Shown: positions 45,051 to 48,600 of the stretch, in pieces
How positions within the stretch are numbered: position 1 is the stretch's first letter
Layout: the number at the start of each line of letters is the position of its first letter
From: Zootoca vivipara
Taxonomy: Eukaryota
DNA length: 64,000 bases
Direction: 5' to 3'
NCBI RefSeq assembly: GCF_963506605.1
Contig: NC_083284.1
Location: 16,492,001 to 16,556,000 of the forward strand
Notes under the pieces: generated by a model
Databases searched by the model: none
The model's input: the letters and a program-made list of their open reading frames with translations, nothing else
What the model was told of the DNA's origin: nothing
Position numbers and translations under genes: made by a program

Positions 45051-45534
45051 TTTGCGACGGAGCTGGGCATTTTGTTTAGACTCAGGATAGGGCAGCCTAT
45101 AGTATTAAAGGAAATACAGTAATAGAAAACTTTCCAGCGTTCACATATGAAGGGATGAGGTAAAAAAATCATAGTTCTGCTGCTGTAGGAAATTAGGGGT
45201 GAGAGACTGGATTCCTGGACATTAATCAGGAAAGGTCTTTTTAAATTTGAAACTTTATGTCTTGGCACTTCCGTAGCACCACGGCACTACTTTTGGTAAG
45301 TTACAGTAACTTTCATTTACAGTTCTGCAAGTAACAGTGATCAAGCATATATGATGCAATGGTAAATGGTGCAGAGGTTTAAAAAGACTGGCAAAATTAA
45401 ATATCCTGGGAAGAATTAAATGACATATTATATTCACCATAAAACTGGCGACAAGGCTGAAAAGCAATTCCAGAAAGTTTAGATTGTGTTTCTCTTAATT
45501 GGTGCAAATAACATAACTTAACTAGTTGAGTTGA

Positions 45535-45640
45535 AACAAAATAGAAAAATTCCTTCCAGTAGCACCTTAGAGACCAACTAAGTTTGTCATTGGTATGAGC
45601 TTTCGTGTGCATGCACACTTCTTCAGATACTTATTTAGAT
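45535..45640 (-). mobile_element. Penelope-like element remnant
   Basis: ccagtagcaccttagagaccaactaagtttg...gagctttcgtgtgcatgcacacttcttcagatac, flanked by the 19-bp direct repeat acttaactagttgagttga. Confidence 0.75.
45593..45630 (-). ncRNA. Minimal type I hammerhead ribozyme motif
   Basis: Minus strand GUAU-CUGAAGA-A-GUGUGCAUGCACAC-GAAA-GC-UC-AUAC: conserved core, palindromic stem II, 4-bp stem I, minimal AGCU stem III. Confidence 0.75.
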
Positions 45641-48600
45641 ACTTAACTAGTTGAGTTGAGTTCTTCAGATGCCCAGTTTGGGAGGATCGTGTAGAGGGCC
45701 CTAATGTTGTACATTGCAAATCCCAACAAAATGGAGTTACACCCAATTCAGCTTTTCTTTCTGCGGCTGCTGCTGCTGCTGTCATTAAGTTTTTGTCATT
45801 TTGGTTGTCACTGGTGAGGAATCATACACCATAATGATGTCAGGACATAGGGCAGGTTGGGGAGAGGGCGACGCTTGATACAGAGCTGCCATTTTTTAAT
45901 AGAAAACTTGAGAGATTTGCTCCTCGAAAACTTTATCCCCATTCTCCAGGGGATATGGTGCATGCTGTTTCTGTTTGTAATCTAAATTGGTTGTATTAAG
46001 TCTTCAAGTGTGTGATTGATAGGTCCTGGGTTGCAAGGTGAGATGGAAGGAAGTAGATAATTAAGCTGCTTGTGCATTATCTGGGCAGATACATCGAAAG
46101 AGCTGCCTTACTGAACAGGAGAGCACCTTATCAGATTTGTTATTGTAATGAACTGGTGATGCTTTTTATTATGCTGTGTGGCAGCTGTTAACACTCTCAT
46201 AAAACATATTGCCAACCAGAATAATGCTAAATTGCTGTTCAAACACAACTATATGGGAAGCCAAGGTTACCTTGATGGCACAACAGAAATAGTCCACTCA
46301 TTTACTCGGGTAGCACATTTCCTTCTGCATGGTATTGACTTTGCTACATCTAATCTAGCTCTATACCCAAGAACTTTAGAACATTTTCACAGCCTTCTGG
46401 TTTTTGTGTGTGATTGTCCACTGCCAGATTAACAGCTGACTGCAAATTTACCCGCCACACCCTGAAAGTCCTGTATTAATTTTCAGCATGCTCTTGACCT
46501 TGGCATGGTGAGCAGCAAGTCTAGGTAATGCTAAGCCAATTTTACACAGATCTTTTTAAACAATGGTTTTTTTTGACAAAATGCAGTATATAGCATAAAG
46601 CAGCATGGGAGAACACACTGCAGAATTTTGTGCACAAAATAAATTTCATTTCCCCTGTTAGTGTGGTCACTAAAGCCTAATCTCCTTGGAAATTAACCTG
46701 CATCTCAATGTGCATGATTTATTATTAAACACAGAATTTGGGTTAAGAGAATACATGCAGTTTTGTTCTTTATTTGGCAAAGGCAATCCTTTGATTAAAT
46801 CAAGAACCTATAATTGTATTTTTTTTATTTGCTGAGTGACAGACTCAGCTTTACTAAGGATGCTGATAAAGTTGGTTTGGCTGAGGTCCTGGTATGAGTT
46901 TTGAGGGCTCATGAAGCTGACCTCATAGAAGAGGTGAACATTACAGGGTCCCTGAATTATTTTCCAGCTTGGATTAAAAAAAGCTGCCTTACAGAAGAAA
47001 GATGTGGAATGCTATGGTTTACGACTCCATATCAGGTTTTCTGGGAAATTGACCAGTGGACTTGGCATTTATGGATATTTTGACAATTTGTCATCAAGTT
47101 GATTTAATAACATTTCCCCTCTGCCTCTCTTTCAAAATACAGAATACCTAGGTTGTGCCCACTGGCCCAGCCACACTATTCATCCAGCCAATCTACCCAA
47201 TTCCCTTTAAGCAGAACTCACCTGACTGGGCTGCATGATGGTTATCTAGTCCCAACAGAGAAGTAAGAAAGTGAGGAAGGTGTCTCTCTTATTTTTCCTC
47301 CAGTGTGCTTGGATTGAAGGCGTGATAGGGGCATGGCAAATTCCTTTGGAAAAATAGACCAAACTATTTCCGGTTTTTTCACCAATTAGTTCCCTATGAG
47401 TCAATCCAGTGGAAGTCTGTGTATAAGTTTCTAATGCTTATTTGTCTTGCTAAGAGAAAAAAGTGAATTCCTCGAAGATTTTTTATTTTTATATGTATTA
47501 CAACATAGGTATAGAACACAATATTCATTTAATAATAAAGTACCTAATCTTGCAATAAAGACTAAATTATTACAATTTAGGAGGGAAATCTCAATATTTA
47601 TTGTATCAGTTCCAATAATTAATGAATAACTCAAAAATATGGATATGTAACACTATTGCTATATTTATGTTTCAAACTTTGCACCGTAAGGCTACAGTCC
47701 TTATGCATACCTGCCTAGAATTAAATCCAATTGAACTCAGCATGGCTTGCTGAGTAAAGGATTGCTATGTATATCTATATTTTGTTTTGGAATTCAAAGT
47801 GATTGATATTAATGCTTTTGATCATATGCTCATAATTAGTCACAAATTTATTGCTAAATTTCTTAAGAGAACAAGGGAATTCCAACACAAAGACCTAATA
47901 ATTTCCCTGCAAAATGTAAAGCCTCTGAGAAGCCAACTAAAAAATGATGTTCAATACAAACTGAGCCCACCCTTTGTAAACCACGTAGGAATATCTGGAT
48001 AAATTTAATGGACTACAGGAAAGAGCAGAAACACTTAAGCACTAATGCTATCTGTGAAAGTAGACAAAATTAATGTAGCAATTTGGAACATTGCAGCATT
48101 TGAATTAAAGTTCCCTCTCAATAATTACAAATTAGGTTGCAGAAACAGATTTGCAACTCAGCTGTGAGGATTAATCAAGTATGTACATTATTACAAGAGA
48201 CTGTTTGTGAGTAATAAAACATCATAAAATTGAAATAAATGCAATATGTGCACGTGCGCACAAAGAAAACTTAGACAGCTCTTTCATGAGATGGATGTGT
48301 AGAGGATTAACAACACAAACTTGTGACCCATTGAGTTCAACAGGACCTACTTTGTCAAGTAAGGAGGCTTGTACCATGAGGCTAATTATCTTGCCATGTT
48401 GGATAAAAGGTAAGTTCCCCAGGCAGCCACAGCAGCACTGGAGCTGCTTGTGGTTTTACATTTTATTTATTTGTAAATGAAAAGATTTCTACACCGCTTC
48501 TTACGAATCTGATTTACTAAATAATAGAACAAAATCGAATAAAAAACAATAATTTTCATTAAAAGCAATAAAATTCCAGTTCTTGACTGGACAAAGTTCA

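What the first reader, a model, noticed from the sequence alone, without database searches (positions are those of the whole stretch)
45516..45670. Minimal hammerhead ribozyme in a ~100-bp Penelope-like remnant flanked by a 19-bp duplication
Seen: the minus strand of 45593-45630 reads GUAU CUGAAGA A GUGUGCAUGCACAC GAAA GC UC AUAC. That gives the full CUGAnGA/GAAA/UH core, a perfect palindromic stem II, a 4-bp stem I (GUAU/AUAC) and only AGCU for stem III. The remnant lies between two copies of acttaactagttgagttga (45516-45534 and 45641-45659), and ttcttcagat is echoed at 45661. Known: Penelope-like elements carry such minimal type I hammerheads, proposed to cleave as dimers. Inference: this is a tiny retro-inserted unit truncated right at the ribozyme. 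It is antisense to CCSER1, so it would not cut the pre-mRNA but could cut antisense transcripts.
Basis: partly seen in the sequence, partly recalled or inferred. Interest (0 to 1): 0.7.

Follow-up and report, generated by a model that had tools for sequence, protein, structure and literature searches.

The report
Lizard Penelope hammerhead insertion stub
This is one of more than 16,000 short copies of a Penelope-type jumping gene in a lizard genome, and it carries an already described minimal self-cutting RNA motif that is likely silent here; across the family the copies mostly stop at the motif's first base, not at its cut site, which likely marks where the element's RNA begins.

Summary
The hammerhead motif is real and intact (minus strand 45630-45593). 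It is the known minimal hammerhead of Penelope-like elements, here in a ~100-bp solo stub of a young Neptune-type family. The genome holds 16,884 exact copies of its first 26 bases and intact 901-aa RT + GIY-YIG sister ORFs. The stub is antisense to a confirmed CCSER1 exon. The duplication is 17 bp, next to 10 lost host bases, not 19 bp. The 'ttcttcagat echo' is host DNA older than the insertion. The stub does not end at the cut site (+34) but at the first base of stem I. In the family sample, 17 of 44 non-inverted copies end there and 2 of 44 at the cut site. Genome-wide an extra G often precedes that base, and a TATA-like box lies ~31 nt upstream in long copies. I infer reverse transcriptase run-off to a capped transcript start, from uncut RNA. 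The lone copy lacks promoter and partner and is predicted not to fold actively. The locus is ordinary; the family pattern is a modest lead.

The parts
45593..45630 (-). Minimal type I hammerhead motif: stem I 45630-45627/45596-45593, core CUGAAGA 45626-45620, extra A 45619, stem II 45618-45605, GAAA 45604-45601, palindromic AGCU 45601-45598, predicted cut between 45597 and 45596
   Evidence: Sequence; fold; features as described in PMC4209133
45533..45630 (-). Solo stub of the pLTR / 5' leader of a Neptune-type Penelope-like element, lacking the optional tail. Element-type bases run on to 45529 as 4 nt shared with the target
   Evidence: Identical over 86 nt to 11 fetched loci, and within 2 mismatches at 78 places in the fetched loci, some fetched twice. 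The same motif lies 137 nt before the ATG of intact sister ORFs
45516..45532 (.). Target-site duplication, copy at the element's 3' junction (17 bp; 45529-45532 is microhomology with the element end)
   Evidence: Single copy at the empty site in organisms B and C
45641..45657 (.). Target-site duplication, copy at the element's 5' junction (17 bp)
45631..45640 (-). Junction filler; with the last 2 bases of the duplication it forms a 10-of-12 stutter of the element's first 12 bases
   Evidence: family D1, 83%; 144 exact in-register stutters of this kind genome-wide
45658..45658 (.). Single base standing where organisms B and C have 10 host bases (loss at, or before, insertion)
   Evidence: tables 4 and 7
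45659..45670 (.).
   Evidence: Contigs of B and C align from 45659 onward at the empty site
42726..42846 (+). CCSER1 coding exon that fixes the host gene strand
   Evidence: Splice-site scan; 25 of 25 hits at E<=0.001, 24 named CCSER1 (or its synonym), best 100% identical to a lacertid protein

Best explanation
This is a lineage-specific, likely inert ~100-bp insertion stub of a young Neptune-type Penelope-like retroelement that carries the family's intact minimal hammerhead motif and was likely copied from uncut element RNA. Shown: the motif, the family, the empty site in relatives, the 17-bp duplication, and the pile-up of 5' ends at stem I. Inferred: the pLTR promoter (TATA-like box ~31 nt upstream) starts a capped RNA at the first G of stem I. 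The element's protein nicks AT-rich DNA and starts reverse transcription inside the RNA, ~100 nt (no tail) or ~136 nt (tail) from that start, then runs off the 5' end. The end is joined with a short stutter and a small host loss. The solo copy has no promoter and no partner, so it would not cleave; in the parent element the motif would cleave only as a dimer or with the element's protein.
For: Family size: 8,522 exact matches to a 30-mer of this subfamily, 16,884 to the first 26 bases, 22,310 core-intact motifs; reversed-pattern controls were 0 in each.

Parent element: long copies run upstream into a GIY-YIG domain (L005) and downstream through the tail into an ORF start. All 20 fetched sister loci have a 901-aa ORF; the motif is at -137 in 18 of 20 and after the ORF in 19 of 20. 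Pfam finds RVT_1 and GIY-YIG.

Insertion: empty site in B and C; both junctions present in a second sample of the same organism.

5' ends, 101 copies anchored downstream of the cut: of 44 non-inverted, 17 end at -4..+5, 2 at the cut site +/-2, and 11 continue upstream. Loose ends at 45630 are the largest 5'-side pile shown in all 4 runs laid. Base before the first G genome-wide, where the element has T: G 3,167, A 1,008, C 590; 29 of 30 G copies do not continue upstream. Purine in place of C17: 108 genome-wide, of which 11 of 20 inspected are true ends. A TATA-like box sits at the same spacing in 6 of 6 long reference copies despite divergent spacers. 3' ends cluster near +86, +97 and +136.

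Literature: in the anole PLE PAc, reverse transcription starts internally at two sites that bracket the tail, uncut RNA is the main template, and cleavage needs the protein (PMC11167929). An extra 5' G is attributed to copying of the cap in L1 and SVA (PMC3287187).
Against: No RNA 5' end was measured; the transcript start is inferred from DNA copies only. The pile-up is uneven: among 92 motif-anchored copies from the first 4 Mb of contig C1, mostly younger sister subfamilies, 60 continue upstream by 15 nt or more and only 7 end exactly at the first G. None of the 18 full-length copies with an upstream motif starts exactly at stem I (by eye), so full-length copies need a longer template. The extra G is not clean: only 2 of 30 G copies show duplication + lone G, 4 have G as the last base of the duplication, and 10 have CAG before the motif, which fold-back of the cDNA or a splice junction could also give. 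The samples come from one end of one contig. The 10-bp host loss may predate the insertion; no empty allele of this species was seen.
Confidence: 0.72

Rival explanations
1. Same element and same insertion, but the 5' end at stem I marks a splice junction, or is plain truncation favoured by cDNA fold-back, not a capped transcript start.
For: In D. virilis Penelope an intron ends at the 5' end of helix I (PMC4209133) and the start site lies 46 bp before that intron (PMC2377424). Four of 6 long references have a pyrimidine-rich run and AG just before stem I. Ten of 30 G copies have CAG before the motif.
Against: Copies ending at stem I share no common upstream exon. Two of 6 references lack the AG. 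Most CAG cases read CTTCAG, the exact reverse complement of the motif's own bases, which fits fold-back. TATA spacing is conserved.
Confidence: 0.17
2. The ribozyme cleaved the RNA and so set the end of this copy, and the copy can cut antisense transcripts of the CCSER1 intron (the strong form of the first reader's idea).
For: The core is intact. The orientation is antisense to CCSER1. Head-to-tail dimers about 200 nt apart exist elsewhere in the genome.
Against: The copy spans the cut site and starts 34 nt before it. Ends at the cut site are rare. There is no second motif of this family in the window. Stem I pairing is 0.001-0.004 in context, and the active dimer (-11.1 kcal/mol) loses to a stem II duplex (-28.0) in the nearest-neighbour model. 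Metazoan min-HHR monomers showed no cleavage in vitro (PMC4209133).
Confidence: 0.06
3. The host 10-mer that matches the element's 5' end guided the 5' joint: the cDNA end paired with it, the 10 host bases between it and the nick were trimmed, and the second 19-mer was copied from the new 3' junction instead of arising from staggered nicks.
For: The loss ends 2 nt from the matching block, and the one new base (45658) equals the element-derived base of the other copy. The chance of such a match within 40 positions is about 0.001, or about 0.03 if any element 10-mer within 80 positions counts.
Against: One site only, noticed after the fact. The match lies outside the joint, the junction is not a clean homologous fusion, and the loss may be older than the insertion.
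Confidence: 0.2

Closest known systems
Minimal hammerheads (min-HHR) in pLTRs of metazoan Penelope-like elements (Cervera and de la Pena 2014, PMC4209133; parts 1-2 of 4 of the text read)
   Same: CUGANGA/GAAA/UH core, extra base between positions 9 and 10.1, G10.1-C11.1 pair, palindromic 15.2-16.2 with no loop 3, 4-bp helix I, mostly single motifs in truncated copies; that paper reports them in Neptune PLEs of fish and similar motifs in turtle and snakes.
   Different: Helix II here is 5 bp plus a self-complementary 4-nt loop, against 7-8 bp described for Schistosoma. The pile-up of copy ends at helix I is not described in the parts read.
PAc (Poseidon) of Anolis carolinensis (Frangieh et al. 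2024, PMC11167929; parts 1-2 of 4 read, 3 supplement text files searched, figures not seen)
   Same: Lizard EN+ PLE; two 3' end classes about 35-40 nt apart (tail); copies made from uncut RNA.
   Different: PAc is Poseidon clade and its ORF starts inside the hammerhead. Here the ATG lies 137 nt after stem I and the protein has the Neptune-type cysteine linker.
Neptune clade of EN+ Penelope-like elements (Craig et al. 2021, PMC8557442; passages read)
   Same: RT, then a CX2-5CxxC linker, then GIY-YIG; pLTRs, partial tandems, inverted 5'-truncated partners, optional 30-40-bp tail.
   Different: Clade placement rests on the linker motif and domain order; no RT tree was built.
Non-LTR retrozymes (bioRxiv 10.64898/2026.07.22.740005; part 1 of 5 and passages read)
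   Same: PLE-derived, type I hammerhead, non-coding.
   Different: Active retrozymes are defined as tandem repeats with at least two hammerhead units; this is a single stub of an autonomous family.

Membership tests
PLE minimal hammerhead (min-HHR) | Core CUGANGA, GAAA and UH cut triplet | tested here: met
PLE minimal hammerhead (min-HHR) | Extra base between 9 and 10.1; G10.1-C11.1 pair; palindromic 15.2-16.2 | tested here: met
   A45619; G45618-C45605; GC at 45600-45599 (definition)
PLE minimal hammerhead (min-HHR) | Short helix I (4-5 bp), type I topology | tested here: met
   4 bp, formed in the 38-nt and 66-nt folds but not in the 106-nt fold
PLE minimal hammerhead (min-HHR) | Lies in the pLTRs of a PLE | tested here: met
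   Same motif before (18 of 20) and after (19 of 20) intact ORFs of sister subfamilies
PLE minimal hammerhead (min-HHR) | Structural covariation across families | tested here: inconclusive
   Position 7 varies (A, C, T, G) among the first 100 of 22,310 matches, but the pattern fixed most other positions and stem II is nearly invariant
PLE minimal hammerhead (min-HHR) | Self-cleavage as a dimer or with protein | not testable with these tools
   Needs in vitro transcription
Rfam canonical hammerhead families | Covariance-model match | tested here: not met
   7 weak matches at E<=10 in 44500-46700, none a hammerhead
EN+ Penelope-like element | Single ORF with RT and C-terminal GIY-YIG | tested here: met
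   RVT_1 E 5e-12 and GIY-YIG E 6e-5 in L261; GIY-YIG in L005, the window's own subfamily
EN+ Penelope-like element | pLTRs, partial tandems, inverted partners, optional tail | tested here: met
   57 of 101 sampled copies have an inverted partner; 3' ends near +97 and +136; tandems
Neptune clade | Zn-finger-like CX2-5CxxC linker between RT and EN | tested here: met
   C-x4-C-x2-C before the GIY-YIG domain in L005 and L261 (definition)
Neptune clade | RT phylogeny groups with Neptune | not tested
Non-LTR retrozyme (active) | At least two tandem units with a hammerhead | tested here: not met
   One copy in the window

The most novel reading that the evidence does not exclude
In this lizard Neptune family the capped transcript starts at the very first base of the hammerhead, so the ribozyme is the 5'-terminal 38 nt of the element's mRNA. 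Thousands of ~100-140-bp stubs are then complete run-off copies from the internal priming sites to the cap, and cleavage would remove a 34-nt capped leader: a decapping switch on the element's own message rather than a maker of insertion ends.
Probability: 0.5. Interest if true: 0.5.

Novelty: new member of a known kind. Interest (0 to 1): 0.27.

Why it matters
The single locus matters little: it is one intronic stub among thousands. The family pattern bears on an open question, since Craig et al. (PMC8557442) call hammerhead function in EN+ PLEs unclear. If the RNA starts at stem I and inserted copies come from uncut RNA, the ribozyme does not define template ends for the short copies and is placed to decap the message. 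The family has many intact ORFs, so this can be tested directly.

Tried and rejected
Rfam scan: no hammerhead match; not taken as refutation, because the min-HHR features are met.

Top BLAST hits overstated ends at stem I because they were ranked by likeness to this copy. I replaced them with samples anchored on fixed patterns. One search used a stricter anchor (58 copies) and was redone as (101 copies, after removing duplicate fetches).

Telomerase-like repeat addition at the 5' end: only 144 exact in-register stutters genome-wide, about 1% of 16,884, and most of the 20 inspected sit in inverted junctions. Kept as ordinary slippage.

The idea that the echo is element-derived filler was rejected by the empty sites.

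Expression: no RNA holder was listed. One RNA run, about 6% read, laid on the flank 45631-46100 gave 1 partly fitting read. Neither says anything about expression, and no RNA run was laid on the motif itself.

The protein atlas was unavailable and Pfam had no family for the exon. Lunse et al. on dimer cleavage (PMC5785218) is not held; it is known here only through a review's passages (PMC6765202).

Paper searches (listings, plus the papers named) turned up no statement that a PLE transcript starts at hammerhead stem I. Subscription papers, figures and bioRxiv supplements were not seen, so this does not show absence from print.

Full report
Observation. The two 19-mers and the 10-base echo are there. 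The loose core pattern is no more frequent in the window than in shuffles (6 against 4.87), and the 38-mer folds no better than shuffles (z -0.44). Rfam gives no hammerhead match. The case therefore rests on family context and on the published min-HHR features, which are met: core, extra base before stem II, G-C closing pair, palindromic AGCU, 4-bp stem I (PMC4209133). A splice-site scan found an exon at 42726-42846 on the + strand whose translation hits CCSER1 proteins, best 100% to a lacertid. The motif is thus antisense, in an intron of a lizard gene.

What it belongs to. The genome holds 8,522 exact copies of a downstream 30-mer of this subfamily, 16,884 of the first 26 bases and 22,310 core-intact motifs. 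Long copies continue upstream into the end of an ORF with a C-x4-C-x2-C linker and a GIY-YIG domain, and downstream through a tail into an ORF start. About 68 of 150 scored ORF starts lie in open frames of 900 aa or more (hand count). All 20 that I fetched have a 901-aa ORF, with the motif 137 nt before the ATG in 18 and after the ORF in 19; one of them gave RVT_1 and GIY-YIG. These intact copies are sister subfamilies, not the window's own. Domain order and linker fit the Neptune clade (PMC8557442); no tree was built. The window copy is identical over 86 nt to 11 fetched loci, so it is young.

The insertion site. Contigs of two related organisms cross the site without the element, and a second sample of the same organism has both junctions. 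In organism B the empty site has the first 17 bases of the 19-mer once, then 10 further bases, then the sequence from 45659; organism C has the same layout with a few substitutions. So the duplication is 17 bp, 4 of them shared with the element's 3' end. Ten host bases are replaced by one base at 45658, and the echo is old host DNA. The 10 bases at 45631-45640 are filler resembling a stutter of the element's first 12 bases; 144 exact stutters of that register exist genome-wide. Duplications of 7-13 bp with short fillers are common in other copies. Whether the host echo helped join the 5' end cannot be settled from one site (chance 0.001-0.03 by how the match is defined).

Where copies end. Counting the first G of stem I as 0, the predicted cut is at +34. 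Of 101 copies anchored downstream of the cut (from the first 100 listed matches on contig C1 and their loci), 44 have no inverted partner: 17 end at -4..+5, 2 at +32..+36, 11 continue upstream by more than 10, and 14 end elsewhere. Of 57 with an inverted partner, 14 end at -4..+5 and 2 at the cut. 3' ends cluster near +86, +97 and +136; the window copy is of the +97, tail-less class. Genome-wide the base before the first G is G in 3,167, A in 1,008 and C in 590 of 16,884 copies, the rest being T, the element's own base; 29 of 30 G copies and 29 of 30 A copies do not continue upstream. Only 108 copies of this subfamily have a purine in place of C17, and 11 of 20 inspected are true ends. Six of six long reference copies keep a TATA-like box about 31 nt upstream. 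Against a uniform rule: among 92 motif-anchored copies from the first 4 Mb of C1, 72 of them from sister subfamilies, 60 continue upstream by 15 nt or more and 7 end exactly at 0; full-length copies do not start at stem I; and the G is a clean lone base in only 2 of 30 cases, the last base of the duplication in 4, and part of CAG in 10.

Mechanism. Shown: the stub spans the cut site, so its template was uncut. From the literature: in the anole element PAc, reverse transcription starts inside the RNA at two sites bracketing the tail, uncut RNA is the main substrate, and cleavage needs the protein (PMC11167929); an extra 5' G in L1 and SVA insertions is ascribed to copying the cap (PMC3287187); TATA and initiator-like motifs were noted in rotifer pLTRs (PMC3846280). 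Inferred: the pLTR promoter starts a capped RNA at stem I, and the enzyme primes ~100-136 nt inside and runs off the cap, leaving stubs like this one. Jumps from that end to a second RNA would give the head-to-tail dimers seen in 6 of 12 loci. The main rival is a splice junction or fold-back at stem I, as the D. virilis intron ends at helix I.

Activity here. The stub lacks the TATA-like box and any partner in the window. In the 106-nt and 361-nt contexts stem I pairs with probability 0.001-0.004, and for two molecules the palindromic stem II duplex (-28.0 kcal/mol) is far more stable than the designed active dimer (-11.1) in a model that ignores tertiary contacts. Published metazoan monomers did not cleave. 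I judge it likely inert; cleavage and expression were not tested.

Novelty. The motif class was described in 2014, and earlier unreviewed notes of this scan reached the same ordinary verdict in other lizard genomes. The one addition is the family-level evidence for a transcript start at stem I. My searches did not find it stated, within the limits of the library. Verdict: new member of a known kind, interest 0.27.

Noticed in passing
window 6808-9687 (-): A 780-aa open frame with endonuclease- and RT-like sequence plus a 178-aa piece: a LINE, by recall of the RTE/BovB type. The name comes from no call.
   Followed up: no
L139, L142, L146-L149, L045 (around 1500-1750): Head-to-tail dimers in which one unit runs 40-60 nt into the ORF and joins a second unit at the start of stem I, placing two hammerheads about 200 nt apart: natural substrates for a dimer test.
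   Followed up: partly
L112 (G000:C1:2777450-2780000): Four hammerhead-bearing units in tandem with a 598-bp period, retrozyme-like.
   Followed up: no
G000, one search list: About 68 of 150 scored ORF starts lie in frames of 900 aa or more, some in 3,030-bp tandems: a very young, probably active PLE family.
   Followed up: partly
L210, L213, L221-L223, L229: Inverted junctions that read as a fold-back of the cDNA end with a 4-base loop, needing one extra base beyond the first G; 3-base-loop versions also occur.
   Followed up: partly
window 45605-45618 (-): Stem II is a perfect 14-nt palindrome predicted to form an intermolecular duplex that competes with the active dimer.
   Followed up: partly
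window about 45690-45696, organism C contigs: Organism C has a separate insertion about 40 bp from this site (loose ends).
   Followed up: no
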